From: Candidatus Amesbacteria bacterium | GTDB taxonomy: Bacteria; Patescibacteriota; Microgenomatia; CAZETR01; Amesbacteraceae | Assembly (NCBI GenBank): GCA_963736875.1 | Contig: CAVTQH010000004.1 | Location: 253,899 to 311,559 of the forward strand | Direction of reading: 5' to 3' | Length of the DNA stretch: 57,661 nucleotides | Part shown: positions 41,640 to 52,588 of the stretch, piece by piece | Numbering within the stretch: the stretch's first letter is position 1 | Layout: every line of letters starts with the position of its first letter | Program-made: the position numbers and the translations under genes | The notes under the pieces: generated by a model | Databases searched by the model: none | Told to the model about the DNA's origin: nothing | What the model saw: the letters and a program-made list of their open reading frames with translations, nothing else

Positions 41640-41665
41640 TTGTATACTATTGTATATATATGTTA
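41640..41665. promoter_or_regulatory. Phased direct repeats (TTGTA, TTGTA, TGTTA), candidate operator
   Basis: TGT at 41641, 41651 and 41661 in the divergent intergenic region upstream of the HTH_17 gene. Confidence 0.55.
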
Positions 41666-41688
41666 TAAATTATATATAGCTAAAACCC

Positions 41689-41976
41689 ATGGAAACTCTC
41701 TTCACTATTAAGCAGGTTTCATTTATTCTCAAGGTTCATCCCCTGACAGTCCGCCGTTATATCCGGGACAAAAAACTCCCGGCGGTTAAAATCGGAGGGG
41801 CTGTCCGAGTGTCCGAAGAACAGTTGCAGAAGTTCCAAAAAAACTACTCCGTCGGTGAAAAAAATACCGCCAGTAAATTCACCCCGAAAATCAGAAAAGT
41901 CTTCTCTTTTGACGACCCCATCTGGCGGTTGGACGGCATCGGCACCAGTTTAAGTTTACCCGAAACCGACAACTGA
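41689..41976 (+). CDS. Excisionase/BldC-type helix-turn-helix protein (HTH_17)
   Basis: LFTIKQVSFILKVHPLTVRRYIRDKKLPAVKIGGAVRVSEEQL. Confidence 0.88.
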   Translation: METLFTIKQVSFILKVHPLTVRRYIRDKKLPAVKIGGAVRVSEEQLQKFQKNYSVGEKNTASKFTPKIRKVFSFDDPIWRLDGIGTSLSLPETDN

Positions 41977-41985
41977 TAAATTATT

Positions 41986-42411
41986 ATGATTACCGGTAAA
42001 AGAGTCTTTCTCACCCCCTCCGTCATGTTTGCTTTTGTCGACCGCAACGACCCCAAACACAACCAGGCCAGCGCTTATATGCGTTACTTCGCCCAGGAAA
42101 AATACAACCTGTACATTACTCTCTCCTCGATCATAAAAACTTATAATGATCTGAGAAAGCATATGAGTTACGCCATCGCCAAAGATTTCATCAGAGCTTG
42201 TTTTACCGGCAACATTGAGATTGTATATCCCGACGAAGCCTCCACCAAAGCCGCTCTCAAACTGATTCTGTCCGAGACCCAGCGCGACTTCAATAATTTC
42301 GACCACGCCCTGATTAACGTCCTGGCTGACAAAAACCAGATCCCCCAAATCTGCTCTTTCGAATTTTCCCGCTTTTATTTCGGCATAAGTTTATTTAACC
42401 TGCCCTTCTGA
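41986..42411 (+). CDS. PIN (VapC-like) domain protein with degenerate active site
   Basis: VFLTPSVMFAFVDRNDPKHNQA...FDHALINVLA...ICSFE aligns by eye to the VapC pattern. Confidence 0.75.
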   Translation: MITGKRVFLTPSVMFAFVDRNDPKHNQASAYMRYFAQEKYNLYITLSSIIKTYNDLRKHMSYAIAKDFIRACFTGNIEIVYPDEASTKAALKLILSETQRDFNNFDHALINVLADKNQIPQICSFEFSRFYFGISLFNLPF

Positions 42412-42412
42412 T

Positions 42413-43498
42413 ATGAAATTGGTTTTTGTCCTGTTTCTGTTACTATTACTATCCCCGATTACAATTTTTGCCGGTCCCAAAAGCACCAACTTCGAGCTTC
42501 AGGAATACCAATTCGGTGCAGGCGGAACCAACACCGGTTTCAGCTCAACCAACTATTCCATTTTTGGAATTTCCGGTCAGGCCGAATCTGGTCAACCCGG
42601 ATCAACCAATTTTCAATCCGGAAACGGCCTGGTTTATTTGCTGCAGTCCGGAGTTCCGCCCGCCCCGACCTTGTCAAATAACAGTAATTTATACTATAAC
42701 AAACTATTAATAACTATAAACTATAGTATATCTTATGCATCGATTCCGTCGGATATGTTATTTGCTATCGCCGTCTCCACTGATTTTGGAAATCCCCTGC
42801 TTACCAAGTATGTCCAGGCAGATCAGACCCTGGGAGACAACCCTGTTTGGCAATCGTATACCACCTGGGGTGGTTCTTCCGGATTTATCCTCGCCGGCCT
42901 ATTGCCCGATACCACTTATTATGTAAAAGTTGCTGCCAAACAGGGAAGCTTTACCCAAACCGGATTCGGCCCGGCTGCCGGTCTGGCTACGGCTCCCAGT
43001 TCCATTTCTTTTTCTGTCCGCACCGTCGCCCAGTCCTCCCCCCCCTTCACCATGGATCTGGGAATTCTCACCCCCGGATCGGTTACCACTACCGTCGATC
43101 AGGGTCAAATTACGATTTCCACCAACGCCAACTCGGGAGCGCTGGTTTATATCTATGGTACCAATTCCGGACTTCTCAGTTCTTCCCAAGGTAATTATAC
43201 AATCGACAGTGTCTTACCATCCGGCCAGGATCTGTCGCTTCTGACTGAAGGTTATGGAGTCAGGGGTACCGGTGTCTCCAAAGTTTCCGGTAACATGGTG
43301 ATCAGTGAACCCTATAATGGTTCCGATGATTTTGTCGGACCCGTTGATACCGATCAGCGGATTCTCTTTACCACCGACGATGCCCCTGTTGACACGGGAG
43401 TCGGCCGGTTCGAAATCCGGGCAAAAGCTTCGCTTGTCGCCCCTCCCGCCGGCGACTACGCCGATACTCTGACCATTATTGCCGCCGGCTCATTTTAA
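42413..43498 (+). CDS. Secreted FN3-like + WxL/pilin-like protein
   Basis: Signal peptide, GLLPDTTYYVKVAA (FN3-like), C-terminal APPAGDYADTLTIIAAGSF. Confidence 0.72.
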   Translation: MKLVFVLFLLLLLSPITIFAGPKSTNFELQEYQFGAGGTNTGFSSTNYSIFGISGQAESGQPGSTNFQSGNGLVYLLQSGVPPAPTLSNNSNLYYNKLLITINYSISYASIPSDMLFAIAVSTDFGNPLLTKYVQADQTLGDNPVWQSYTTWGGSSGFILAGLLPDTTYYVKVAAKQGSFTQTGFGPAAGLATAPSSISFSVRTVAQSSPPFTMDLGILTPGSVTTTVDQGQITISTNANSGALVYIYGTNSGLLSSSQGNYTIDSVLPSGQDLSLLTEGYGVRGTGVSKVSGNMVISEPYNGSDDFVGPVDTDQRILFTTDDAPVDTGVGRFEIRAKASLVAPPAGDYADTLTIIAAGSF

Positions 43499-43543
43499 AA
43501 AGTACTTGACAACTTATAGCTTTTGTTAGCATACTGGAAGATA

Positions 43544-50803: not shown

Positions 50804-50812
50804 TCCCATCCC

Positions 50813-51238
50813 ATGGCTCCCAAAAAAGTTAAAGTCATTCTCAAAATAAATTTACCGGCCGGAGAAGCTACACCCGCTCCTCCTGTCGGACCGGCTCTCG
50901 GCCAGCACGGCGTTCCGATCATGGACTTTGTCAAGCTTTACAATGACAAAACCAAGGACCTGAAAGGTGACATTATTCCGGCCGTTATCACAGTCTACGA
51001 GGACCGGTCATTTACATTTATCACCAAACTCCCTCCGGTTTCCGCTATGATCAAAAAAGTATTAGGTTTGAAAATCGCTTCCCAAAAACCCGGACGGGAA
51101 ACCGCCGGTACCATCACTTCAGATCAGGTCAGGGAAATTGCCGGTAAGAAACTGGGGGATTTAAATTGCACCACTCTGGAAGCCGCTGTTAAAACTGTTG
51201 AAGGCACCGCCCGCTCCATGGGTATTAAAGTCTCCTAG
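50813..51238 (+). CDS. rplK: 50S ribosomal protein L11
   Basis: AGEATPAPPVGPALGQHGV, YEDRSFTF, GTARSMGI. Confidence 0.97.
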   Translation: MAPKKVKVILKINLPAGEATPAPPVGPALGQHGVPIMDFVKLYNDKTKDLKGDIIPAVITVYEDRSFTFITKLPPVSAMIKKVLGLKIASQKPGRETAGTITSDQVREIAGKKLGDLNCTTLEAAVKTVEGTARSMGIKVS

Positions 51239-51319
51239 ATTCTCTTCTCAATCACTTTATAGCCTTCTTGAATCAATTCCCCGGTAGAAATATTTTCTCA
51301 CGCCTAGCCAGTCTGAAGA

Positions 51320-51661
51320 TTAATTCTTCCTAATTTCTCCCCTTCCTGACTCAATTTCTTCCATCCATCCGTTTACTGTTATCTTATCCAACATCCGTTT
51401 CACTTCCGCACGTATATATTGATCCGTCTGAACCAGAAGCACTCCCAAAGCCCTTCTCACTTGAAAATCCTGGGCGCATTTCAATTGCTCCTCTATTCCC
51501 ATACTTTCTTCGTTAAGCTCGGTAAGTTTCTTTAACCAATCCGAATATTCAGGCTTAATCCTGACAGATCCAGACATACTTCTCCATCTCTCCCTAATTT
51601 GCCGGGTTTTCCGGTCTTCATCCCAGCCTTGTGAAAAATTACCTCTTTTCTCCATTTTCAA
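51320..51661 (-). CDS. Hypothetical helical protein
   Basis: 113-aa charged ORF downstream of dprA. Confidence 0.5.
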   Translation of the reverse strand: MKMEKRGNFSQGWDEDRKTRQIRERWRSMSGSVRIKPEYSDWLKKLTELNEESMGIEEQLKCAQDFQVRRALGVLLVQTDQYIRAEVKRMLDKITVNGWMEEIESGRGEIRKN

Positions 51662-51722
51662 AGCTAATTATATACCATAACATTTGCTATACAATCTATA
51701 ACAATATATATATGTATGTTAC

Positions 51723-52403
51723 TTATAGATCTATTTCTGCCTTAACATCAGGATATAAACCCAGTTGTTGTTGCGGCACCCACATTTTCGCCCGGCCCGT
51801 GGCGATTAGCCAATTTGTACCCTCGGATACTTTACTGGTAACCGGACCGGGTACGGCCCAGACAGTCTTCCCTAGCTTTCTTCCCCATTCCGCGGTGATC
51901 AGTGATCCGCTTTTTATTGCTCCCTCAACCACATATATGTCTGAGGCCATGGCGGCCATGATTCTGTCTCTGTGGGGAAACATCCATAAAGTTGATCTCT
52001 CATTTAACCACTCAGAGACCACCGCCCCTCTATGAGCCACAATTTCGTTTACCAGCTCCTTCTCTTCGTTTCCTGCTCCATCCCAATTTATTCCCCATCC
52101 CAGAACCGCAATGGTTTTCCCTCCGTATTTAAGGCATTCCCGGTGTACATGCTGATCAACTCCGTACATCAATCCTGACACGATTATTTTCCCTGATGCG
52201 ACCAGGTTTGCTACCAGTTTTTTTGTAACAATTATTCCGTATTCGGTTATTCTTCTGGTTCCGACTACAGCCACACACGAAGAAAGTTCCTTTTGATCAA
52301 ACTGTCCCAGATAAAATAACCCTACAGGTTTCGAACTTAACTGTTTAAAGCTTATAGTGATGGTTTTTACTTCCCTGTCTATTTGTCCGTTTTTATCAAT
52401 CAT
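51723..52403 (-). CDS. dprA: DNA-processing protein DprA (Rossmann core only)
   Basis: VAVVGTRR, IVSGLMYGVD, VVSEW, FPHRDRIMAAMA, VVEGAIKSGSLITA, AVPG..SEGTNWLI. Confidence 0.9.
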   Translation of the reverse strand: MIDKNGQIDREVKTITISFKQLSSKPVGLFYLGQFDQKELSSCVAVVGTRRITEYGIIVTKKLVANLVASGKIIVSGLMYGVDQHVHRECLKYGGKTIAVLGWGINWDGAGNEEKELVNEIVAHRGAVVSEWLNERSTLWMFPHRDRIMAAMASDIYVVEGAIKSGSLITAEWGRKLGKTVWAVPGPVTSKVSEGTNWLIATGRAKMWVPQQQLGLYPDVKAEIDL

Positions 52404-52557
52404 CAGTATCTTTAACTTACCATAAATACGGCCAATATTTCATGTAGTAACAAAAATACTTTGATTATAAGACCGGTTTCCCTTTCTTAGTTCACAAATC
52501 AAACTCATTCACCCATTGACTTCGCTATGTAACAATATTAATAATATATACATCAGG

Positions 52558-52588
52558 TGTTAAAAACTTGTAAAAACTTGTAAAAACC
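52558..52588. promoter_or_regulatory. 10-bp tandem direct repeats (TAAAAACTTG x2 plus a partial copy), candidate operator
   Basis: TGT at 52558, 52569 and 52579, immediately upstream of the HTH_17 start at 52601. Confidence 0.6.

What the first reader, a model, noticed from the sequence alone, without database searches (positions are those of the whole stretch)
41640..52588. Both HTH_17 genes are preceded by helically phased TGT(A) direct repeats
Upstream of HTH gene 1: TTGTATACTA-TTGTATATAT-ATGTTA, with TGT at 41641, 41651 and 41661. Upstream of HTH gene 2: TGTTAAAAAC-TTGTAAAAAC-TTGTAAAAAC, with TGT at 52558, 52569 and 52579. Each has two TTGTA and one TGTTA about one turn apart. Xis/BldC-family proteins are known to bind direct repeats head-to-tail as cooperative filaments. 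The inference is a shared autoregulatory circuit linking both giant-fibre loci; site 1 sits between divergent promoters.
Basis: partly seen in the sequence, partly recalled or inferred. Interest (0 to 1): 0.7.

Follow-up and report, generated by a model that had tools for sequence, protein, structure and literature searches.

The report
Conserved 10-bp operator arrays before HTH genes
Two small DNA-binding genes of an ultrasmall (CPR) bacterium are each preceded by their own array of 10-bp direct repeats, and both arrays are conserved in distant relatives, so they are very probably operators controlling giant surface-fibre genes.

Summary

**Site 1 (41640-41679)** is a four-unit array, TTGYATAnnn x4, at exactly 10-bp spacing.
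- The same array precedes about 96% of 153 orthologous HTH1 genes in Microgenomatia (Patescibacteria).
- It occurs nowhere else in 772 kb of those loci, on either strand.
- It sits in fixed register, 14 bp from the -35 (TTGAC) of the divergent giant-fibre promoter, in 116 of 124 non-redundant loci.

**Site 2 (52558-52587)** is a different unit, [C/G]TTGTAAAAA.
- It recurs upstream of all eight relatives of HTH2 that could be fetched. Most of these are HTH_17-TM-dCache proteins followed by a giant gene.
- It often recurs again before the giant gene, in either orientation.

HTH1 folds like BldC and Xis, which bind direct repeats head-to-tail.

The best reading is two separate autoregulatory operators, one per HTH subfamily. 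In four relatives, however, the two modules lie back-to-back with both arrays in one intergenic region, so they are functionally linked.

Binding, its direction of effect and transcription start sites are inferred, not shown.

The parts
41640..41679 (+). HTH1-type operator array: four 10-bp units (TTGTATACTA, TTGTATATAT, ATGTTATAAA, TTATATATAG). Family consensus is TTGYATAnnA x4.
   Evidence: for the window. for conservation upstream of orthologues: spacing is exactly 10, 20 or 30 bp and only on the + strand.
41621..41626 (-). -35 hexamer TTGACT of the divergent fibre-gene promoter (GTCAA on the + strand, 19 nt before the first TG of the array).
   Evidence: TTGACT-N17-CATTAT. GTCAA at exactly -19 in 116/124 non-redundant loci.
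41598..41603 (-). -10-like hexamer CATTAT of the fibre-gene promoter.
   Evidence: Consensus scan only.
38076..41588 (-). Giant secreted fibre gene, divergent from HTH1.
   Evidence: a homologue is divergent and directly upstream of HTH1 in 80 loci.
41689..41976 (+). HTH1: 95-aa HTH_17 (BldC/Xis-like) protein with a conserved C-terminal tail FxxDDPLWRLxGxG.
   Evidence: PF12728, 8.5e-12..
41986..42411 (+). PIN-like partner, probably non-catalytic, translationally close to HTH1.
   Evidence: follows HTH1 in 152/160 loci. (no conserved canonical acidic set). (no Pfam hit for this copy). (relatives hit PF01850).
52516..52545 (+). Sigma-70-like promoter TTGACT-N18-AATAAT upstream of the HTH2 array.
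   Evidence: A TTGAC(A/T/C) hexamer stands upstream of the array in all eight relatives.
52558..52587 (+). HTH2-type operator array: TGTTAAAAAC, TTGTAAAAAC, TTGTAAAAAC. Family unit is [C/G]TTGTAAAAA.
   Evidence: Conserved upstream of eight HTH2 relatives.
52601..52834 (+). HTH2: HTH_17 domain plus Pro-rich linker. It continues after a frameshift into a TM helix and the giant repeat fibre (53212-57138 and beyond).
   Evidence: PF12728, 1.3e-10. (frames). (relatives).
51667..51704 (-). Look-alike, not part of the system: TTGTTATAGA-TTGTATAGCAA-ATGTTAT, which reads as a TTGTAT-N16-TATAAT promoter of a small ORF. It has no GTCAA anchor and its spacing is 10 then 11 bp.
   Evidence: below threshold. 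(the ORF has no Pfam family). (no homologue in the related loci).

Best explanation
The two repeat sets are two distinct operators, each for the HTH_17 (BldC/Xis-type winged-helix) protein encoded next to it.

**HTH1 operator.** HTH1, probably with its PIN-like partner, would load four protomers head-to-tail on four TTGYATA units spaced exactly one helical turn apart. The array overlaps HTH1's own core promoter, from the spacer to the leader. It also begins 14 bp upstream of the -35 of the divergent giant-fibre promoter. One filament would therefore repress the HTH1-PIN-surface operon and set the output of the fibre promoter.

**HTH2 operator.** HTH2 is the cytoplasmic head of a membrane-tethered protein. 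In this window it is fused to the fibre. In most relatives it is fused to a dCache sensor and followed by a giant gene. It would bind [C/G]TTGTAAAAA units lying just downstream of its TTGAC promoter and, in relatives, again in front of the giant gene.

**Shown:** the arrays, their phasing, conservation, specificity, geometry and orientation, and the HTH1 fold.

**Inferred:** who binds, the stoichiometry, and whether the effect is repression or activation.
For: **HTH1 array**
- In 130 non-redundant orthologue upstreams, TGYATA occurs 2-5 times on the + strand in 106. Pairwise distances are 10 (143x), 20 (88x) and 30 (55x), with almost none on the minus strand.
- The 4-unit consensus has no conservation outside the four units.
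- Across 772 kb and both strands, arrays scoring at least 21/24 lie within 160 nt upstream of HTH1 in 122/153 loci. All 29 other hits are also on the + strand, 165-700 nt upstream of HTH1, and none lies elsewhere. Of eleven such loci inspected, five carry an inserted small gene in the leader.
- GTCAA is at exactly -19 in 116/124 loci. TTGACA is at -11 in 31/124.
- Synteny: a divergent fibre gene in 80 loci, and the PIN-like gene in 152/160.

**HTH1 fold**
- pLDDT is about 90 for the HTH domain. The top Foldseek hits are the BldC-DNA complexes 6ama and 6amk and Pukovnik Xis 4j2n, with TM 0.71-0.83 on the target.
- The profile hits 4j2n at 2.7e-4.
- BldC binds 2-4 direct repeats head-to-tail (PMC5859096).

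**HTH2 array**
- The same 10-bp unit lies upstream of eight relatives, with 49-70% identity to HTH2 over the first 60 residues.
- The dominant spacing is 10 bp, and phase is kept across gaps at 20-22, 32 and 42-44 bp.
- A second array before the giant gene is in + orientation in L166, L167 and L172 and in minus orientation in L170 and L171. This argues for a DNA site, not an RNA element.
- No Rfam family matches either region.

**Two specificities**
The recognition helices are identical in every sequence aligned and differ between subfamilies.
Against: - There are no binding data and no transcription start sites. No RNA runs hold this sequence.
- TTGYATA units resemble both -35 (TTGnnn) and -10 (TATAnT) hexamers at the right 17-bp offset. 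Part of the conservation could therefore be promoter function. The third site at 51667-51704 shows that TTGTAT can be a plain -35.
- Units 3 and 4 of the window's own array are degenerate (20/24).
- HTH2 relatives with DNA number only eight lineages.
- HTH2 is interrupted by a frameshift in this assembly.
- Another, unseen protein could be the binder.
- Canonical VapB-type antitoxins bind palindromes, not direct repeats.
Confidence: 0.68

Rival explanations
1. The arrays are mainly promoter architecture: overlapping -35/-10-like hexamers, or UP-like AT-rich phasing, read by RNA polymerase itself. No dedicated repressor filament is involved.
For: - TTGTAT-N17-TATATA can be read inside site 1.
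- Units n and n+2 give a 17-bp spacer.
- The look-alike at 51667-51704 is a near-consensus TTGTAT-N16-TATAAT promoter before a non-HTH gene.
- The arrays always sit at the operon's promoter.
Against: - A promoter needs two hexamers, not four units at exact 10-bp spacing with unit-level conservation.
- 31/124 loci already carry a canonical TTGACA just upstream.
- No other promoter in 772 kb of the same genomes carries such an array.
- HTH2-type units lie downstream of the promoter and also occur inverted in front of the giant gene.
Confidence: 0.15
2. The arrays are recombination-directionality (Xis-type) binding sites. They would be remnants or parts of att sites of an integrated element, and the HTH_17 proteins would be excisionases.
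For: - HTH_17 is the excisionase family. JGI names the orthologues 'excisionase family DNA binding protein'.
- Pukovnik Xis is among the closest structures.
- Xis proteins bind phased direct repeats.
Against: - The immediate neighbours are conserved chromosomal genes across many Microgenomatia lineages: fibre gene, PIN-like gene and surface-protein genes. No integrase is adjacent.
- The array keeps a fixed register to promoter hexamers.
- HTH2 is membrane-tethered and fused to Cache or fibre domains.
Confidence: 0.04
3. The site 2 repeats act in the mRNA leader, as a binding site for an RNA-binding protein or a translational element, rather than on DNA.
For: The units lie between the predicted promoter and the start codon in all nine loci. 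The leader has no Shine-Dalgarno sequence.
Against: - The second copy of the array before the giant gene is inverted in L170 and L171 but direct in L166, L167 and L172.
- No Rfam hit.
- The gene immediately downstream encodes a DNA-binding domain.
Confidence: 0.06
4. Chance clustering of TGT-containing words in AT-rich intergenic DNA.
For: The regions are AT-rich. A third triple exists at 51703-51682.
Against: Shuffle expectations are 0.00 and 0.06 per window. Both arrays are conserved in relatives whose flanking intergenic DNA shows no conservation.
Confidence: 0.01

Closest known systems
BldC of Streptomyces (MerR-like/HTH_17 wHTH; PDB 6ama, 6amk; PMC5859096)
   Same: A small monomeric wHTH without a coiled-coil domain. 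It is the top structural match for HTH1. It binds 2-4 direct repeats head-to-tail about one turn apart at target promoters.
   Different: - BldC's unit is 9 bp (AATTnnnnC) and the number of repeats varies between many regulon targets. Here the unit is 10 bp (TTGYATA or TTGTAAAAA).
- The HTH1 array has a fixed count of four, in fixed register to a divergent -35, and appears locus-specific.
- HTH1 carries a conserved C-terminal tail and a PIN-like partner. HTH2 is membrane-tethered.
- Sequence identity to BldC is only about 28-31%.
Phage/ICE excisionases (lambda Xis, mycobacteriophage Pukovnik Xis 4j2n, RdfS 8dgl)
   Same: The same fold. They form filaments on phased direct repeats.
   Different: Those act architecturally at att sites together with an integrase. 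Here there is no adjacent integrase, the chromosomal synteny is conserved, and the arrays sit at promoters.
Type II toxin-antitoxin autoregulation (VapBC-type)
   Same: A small DNA-binding protein comes first and a PIN-fold partner second. The C-terminal tail is predicted to be disordered. The repeats overlap the pair's own promoter.
   Different: - The DNA-binding domain is HTH_17 and the sites are direct repeats, not palindromes.
- The PIN-like protein lacks a conserved canonical acidic set.
- The pair is vertically conserved and heads a surface-protein operon rather than being a mobile two-gene cassette.
ToxR/CadC/TcpP-type membrane-integrated one-component regulators
   Same: For HTH2 and its relatives: an N-terminal cytoplasmic DNA-binding domain, a single TM helix and an extracytoplasmic (dCache) domain. 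The DNA targets are direct repeats. That ToxR binds direct repeats is from my own knowledge.
   Different: The DNA-binding domain is HTH_17, not an OmpR-type wHTH. In this window the outer part is a giant repeat fibre rather than a sensor domain.

Membership tests
BldC/Xis-type HTH_17 direct-repeat binders | HTH_17 / MerR-like winged helix-turn-helix domain | tested here: met
   - PF12728: 8.5e-12 for HTH1 and 1.3e-10 for HTH2, both above the gathering score.
- Foldseek top hits are BldC and Xis, probability 1.00 and TM 0.71-0.83 on the target, though E is only about 4e-3.
- The profile hits 4j2n at 2.7e-4 and BldC at 0.05.
BldC/Xis-type HTH_17 direct-repeat binders | No MerR coiled-coil dimerisation or effector domain | tested here: met
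   HTH1 is 95 aa. Residues 53-95 have low confidence and hold only one short helix. HTH2 is followed by a Pro-rich linker and a TM helix.
BldC/Xis-type HTH_17 direct-repeat binders | Cognate DNA consists of same-strand direct repeats about one helical turn apart | tested here: met
   The assignment of the repeats to these proteins rests on association only.
BldC/Xis-type HTH_17 direct-repeat binders | Cooperative head-to-tail oligomerisation on the repeats | not testable with these tools
   Needs EMSA, footprinting or a structure.
Type II TA (VapBC-like) module | Antitoxin-first bicistron with a PIN-domain second gene | tested here: met
   There is a 9-nt gap in the window (41976 to 41986). 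The partner follows HTH1 in 152/160 loci. Relatives' partners hit PF01850, some weakly.
Type II TA (VapBC-like) module | Intact PIN catalytic acidic residues | tested here: not met
   No Pfam PIN hit for the window's copy. In an alignment of 129 orthologues, no conserved Asp is seen at the N-terminal strand or at the C-terminal TxD positions. This rests on alignment reading, not on a structure.
Type II TA (VapBC-like) module | Mobile, patchy distribution as a stand-alone cassette | tested here: not met
   Synteny with the fibre and surface genes is conserved across many lineages.
ToxR/CadC-type membrane-integrated regulators (for HTH2) | Cytoplasmic DNA-binding domain, single TM helix and extracytoplasmic domain in one polypeptide | tested here: inconclusive
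   Relatives are single ORFs with HTH_17 plus dCache_1. The window's copy needs a frameshift to join the HTH to the TM helix and fibre.
ToxR/CadC-type membrane-integrated regulators (for HTH2) | OmpR/PhoB-type winged-helix DNA-binding domain | tested here: not met
   The domain is HTH_17/MerR-like. HTH2 works like this family but is not a member.
Excisionase (RDF) sites of an integrated element | Adjacent integrase and att-site context | tested here: not met
   Immediate neighbours in 80-152 loci are the fibre, PIN-like and surface-protein genes. Only about 3 kb on each side was examined.

The most novel reading that the evidence does not exclude
Microgenomatia (CPR) may carry a conserved, previously undescribed two-input switch for their giant surface fibres.

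- One input is a cytoplasmic BldC/Xis-like protein paired with a nuclease-dead PIN partner. It would form a four-protomer filament on TTGYATA x4, locked 14 bp from the -35 of the fibre promoter.
- The other input is a membrane-tethered HTH_17-Cache (or HTH_17-fibre) protein. It would bind TTGTAAAAA units downstream of the same promoter and pull the fibre locus to the membrane.

In relatives both operators flank one promoter. In this genome the module has been split into two loci. If true, this gives a sequence-defined handle on how episymbiotic CPR cells regulate their attachment apparatus.
Probability: 0.35. Interest if true: 0.8.

Novelty: new variant of a known kind. Interest (0 to 1): 0.62.

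Why it matters
Almost nothing is known about transcription control in uncultivated CPR/Patescibacteria. It is also unknown how they regulate the giant surface proteins thought to mediate host attachment.

These arrays are precise, deeply conserved and directly testable cis-elements, each with an obvious candidate binder. They extend the BldC/Xis direct-repeat binding mode in three ways:
- to a new phylum;
- to a TA-derived HTH-PIN pair;
- to membrane-tethered HTH_17 proteins.

The motifs can also be used to map the regulon in thousands of metagenome-assembled genomes.

Tried and rejected
1. **Whole-genome scan.** The window plus 851 kb of related loci was scanned instead.
2. **Expression data.** RNA-seq or transcription start evidence was sought, but only DNA metagenome contigs hold the region.
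3. **Known RNA families.** Nothing relevant was found. One sub-threshold snoRNA hit lies outside the array.
4. **Third triple at 51703-51682 as a third operator.** Rejected:
   - its spacing is 10 then 11 bp;
   - it scores below 18/24;
   - it has no GTCAA anchor;
   - its ORF has no homologue in the related loci;
   - it reads as a plain promoter.
5. **One shared motif for both sites.** Rejected on the unit logos and the recognition helices.
6. **First search for HTH2 relatives.** With residues 1-330 of the joined protein it found only two near-identical relatives. Restricting the query to the HTH (residues 1-56) found 17.
7. **Literature.** A search for Patescibacteria plus HTH_17 found nothing relevant.
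8. **Covariation** between protein residues and unit variants was not attempted, because phylogenetic confounding would be strong.

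
Full report
**1. The observation**

- Site 1: 41640 TTGTATACTA TTGTATATAT ATGTTATAAA TTATATATAG, followed by CTAAAACCC and the ATG at 41689.
- Site 2: 52558 TGTTAAAAAC TTGTAAAAAC TTGTAAAAAC, followed by CAGCCTCCTGCCC and the ATG at 52601.

A scan of the whole window, both strands, for TTGTA|TGTTA triples at 10-11-bp spacing finds only three. Two are these sites. The third is on the minus strand at 51703/51693/51682.

Both downstream ORFs are HTH_17 (PF12728): 8.5e-12 for HTH1 and 1.3e-10 for HTH2.

**2. Site 1 is a conserved four-unit array**

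HTH1 (95 aa) has 52 close relatives. One scan each of the metagenome and genome collections gave 160 orthologous loci. Where the records carry a usable name they are Levybacteria, Gottesmanbacteria, Daviesbacteria and other Patescibacteria; many others carry labels such as 'uncultured Gammaproteobacteria'.

*Spacing and strand.* In 130 non-redundant 120-nt upstream regions, TGYATA occurs on the coding strand in 2-5 copies in 106. Pairwise distances are 10 (143 times), 20 (88) and 30 (55), with essentially nothing at 9 or 11. On the other strand, 108 of 130 regions have no copy.

*Consensus.* The logo is TTGYATAnnA x4. Conservation disappears immediately outside the four units. The window's array scores 20/24. 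Its third unit (TGTTAT) and fourth unit (TATATA) are variants that also occur among orthologues.

*Specificity.* Across 772 kb of these loci, both strands, arrays scoring at least 21/24 give 147 hits in 122 of 153 loci within 160 nt upstream of HTH1. All 29 remaining hits are on the same strand, 165-700 nt upstream of HTH1. Not one lies anywhere else.

Of eleven loci with such longer distances that I inspected, five carry a small inserted gene between the array and HTH1, with the array staying at the operon's promoter. By my reading of the sequences these are 23S-rRNA-IVP-like four-helix-bundle genes and one GIY-YIG-like gene. With the wider search, 147 of about 153 loci have an array of at least 20/24. 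In the window itself the only array of at least 20/24 is site 1, and block-shuffles gave 0.00.

**3. Geometry**

GTCAA lies exactly 19 nt before the first TG of the array in 116 of 124 non-redundant loci. On the other strand this is TTGAC, the -35 of the divergent promoter. In the window that promoter is TTGACT-N17-CATTAT at 41626-41598, just before the ATG of the 1170-aa fibre gene at 41588.

A homologue of that fibre gene is the divergent upstream neighbour in 80 loci. In 31 of 124 loci a TTGACA sits 11 nt before the array. This places unit 2 at the -10 of the HTH1 promoter and units 3-4 in a short leader without a Shine-Dalgarno sequence. In many loci the ATG directly follows unit 4.

The array therefore overlaps the HTH1 promoter and abuts the fibre promoter.

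**4. The candidate binder**

*Fold.* The HTH domain of HTH1 is modelled confidently, with pLDDT about 90 for residues 1-50. Its best structural matches are the BldC-DNA complexes 6ama and 6amk and Pukovnik Xis 4j2n. The family profile also finds 4j2n (2.7e-4) and BldC (0.05) by sequence.

*Precedent.* BldC binds 2-4 direct repeats head-to-tail, one protomer per 9-bp unit (PMC5859096).

*Partner.* The C-terminal third of HTH1 has low confidence but carries an almost invariant FxxDDPLWRLxGxG motif. This is typical of a partner-binding tail. The partner is a PIN-like protein that follows HTH1 in 152 of 160 loci. Neither the family nor the window's copy shows a conserved canonical acidic set.

The pair is followed by surface-protein genes in 75 loci. 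It looks like a domesticated TA-type pair at the head of a surface operon, not a mobile cassette.

**5. Site 2 is a different, also conserved array**

*Finding relatives.* HTH2 stops at 52834. A search with the joined protein restricted to the HTH domain found 17 proteins of 600-690 aa. Their HTH is 64-79% identical to HTH2 (best local alignment). It is followed by dCache_1 and then, where neighbouring genes could be read, by a further large gene, up to 5,399 aa, often cut off by the contig end. Two relatives of about 1000 aa were found earlier.

*Arrays upstream.* All eight independent loci with DNA carry [C/G]TTGTAAAAA units upstream of the HTH2-type gene and downstream of a TTGAC(A/T/C) hexamer.

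| Locus | Arrangement of units |
|---|---|
| L161 | 2-3 units |
| L163 | 2 + 2 |
| L167 | 3 + 3 |
| L172 | 2 + 2 |
| L174 | about 6 |
| L166, L170, L171 | 4-5 units |

*Phasing.* The dominant spacing is 10 bp. Phase is kept across gaps, at 20-22, 32 and 42-44 bp.

*Second array.* Five loci have a second array between the HTH2-Cache gene and the next, large gene. It is direct in L166, L167 and L172 and inverted in L170 and L171. Orientation independence argues for a DNA site rather than an RNA element.

*Synteny.* L163 shares the window's dprA-HTH2 arrangement.

**6. Shared or separate?**

The two units differ where each is most conserved: TTGYA**T**A versus TTGTA**A**AAA. The two HTH subfamilies are 28-34% identical. 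Their recognition helices are identical in every sequence aligned and distinct between subfamilies: KVHPLT(V/I)RRYI versus STNTVYKYL. Each array type tracks its own gene. A single shared operator is therefore not supported.

The modules are linked, however. In L166, L170, L171 and L174 an HTH1-type gene plus PIN lies divergent from the HTH2-Cache-giant operon. In all four, a TTGAC(A/C) -35 driving the giant operon lies between a TGYATA-type x4 array on the HTH1 side and a TTGTAAAAA array downstream; in L170 the GTCAA-N14 register to the HTH1-side array can be read directly. The window appears to hold a split version of this dual-input arrangement.

**7. Mechanism and rivals**

*Most likely (about 0.68).* Two operators, each for its neighbouring HTH_17 protein.
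- HTH1, with or without the PIN-like protein, forms a four-protomer head-to-tail filament. It represses its own promoter and modulates the adjacent fibre promoter.
- HTH2 is membrane-tethered and binds its units in the leader, and before the giant gene in relatives.

*Rivals.*
- Mainly promoter architecture (0.15). The units resemble -35 and -10 hexamers, and the third site at 51667-51704 is a plain TTGTAT-N16-TATAAT promoter.
- An RNA-level role for site 2 (0.06).
- Excisionase att sites (0.04).
- Chance (0.01).

Binding, stoichiometry, direction of regulation and transcription start sites remain inferred.

**8. Limits**
- No RNA data exist for this organism.
- HTH2 relatives are few.
- No literature on such arrays in Patescibacteria was found.

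Noticed in passing
window 51667-51704 (minus strand): A third phased TGT triple (TTGTTATAGA-TTGTATAGCAA-ATGTTAT) forms a near-consensus TTGTAT-N16-TATAAT promoter before a small ORF (about 51655-51320). The ORF has no Pfam family and no homologue in the related loci.
   Followed up: partly
window 52594-52600; L161, L163, L167, L172 just before the ATG: HTH2-type genes have no Shine-Dalgarno sequence. They share a CTGCC/CTGTC motif 1-7 nt before the start codon: window CCTCCTGCCCATG, L161 CCTGCCTATG, L172 CTGCCCAATG.
   Followed up: no
L069, L122, L160, L128 (about 2490-2956); L151 (2723-3001): Small genes are inserted between the HTH1 array and the HTH1 gene in some relatives. By my reading they are four-helix-bundle, 23S-rRNA-intervening-sequence-like genes and one GIY-YIG-like gene. 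The array is left at the promoter.
   Followed up: partly
L166 2841-2875; L171 3556-3597: The second HTH2-type array lies inside the called 5' end of the giant gene and is open in frame: MLKTCKNLEK in L166 and, inverted, VFTSFYKFLQVF in L171. Either the true start is further downstream or the operator is coding.
   Followed up: no
window 41986-42411 and 129 orthologues: The PIN-like partner of HTH1 is well conserved but shows no conserved canonical acidic tetrad. Only D19, E38 and D67 (window numbering) are kept, and D86 of the family is S in the window. It is probably a non-nuclease co-regulator.
   Followed up: partly
L031, L037, L040, L043, L044, L048, L053 (about 70 nt between the array and the ATG): One clade has a conserved leader, AAAAGAGACTCTTTACTCTTTTT...TCTATTCTATAACTGTC, between the array and HTH1. 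It may form a hairpin or be a second regulatory element.
   Followed up: no
L015, about 40 nt upstream of HTH1: A tandem (GGATTGAG)x4 octamer repeat fills the leader between the array and the start codon.
   Followed up: no
window, whole length: GC skew of the + strand is negative in nearly every 2-kb bin, although genes lie on both strands. This is consistent with one replichore.
   Followed up: no
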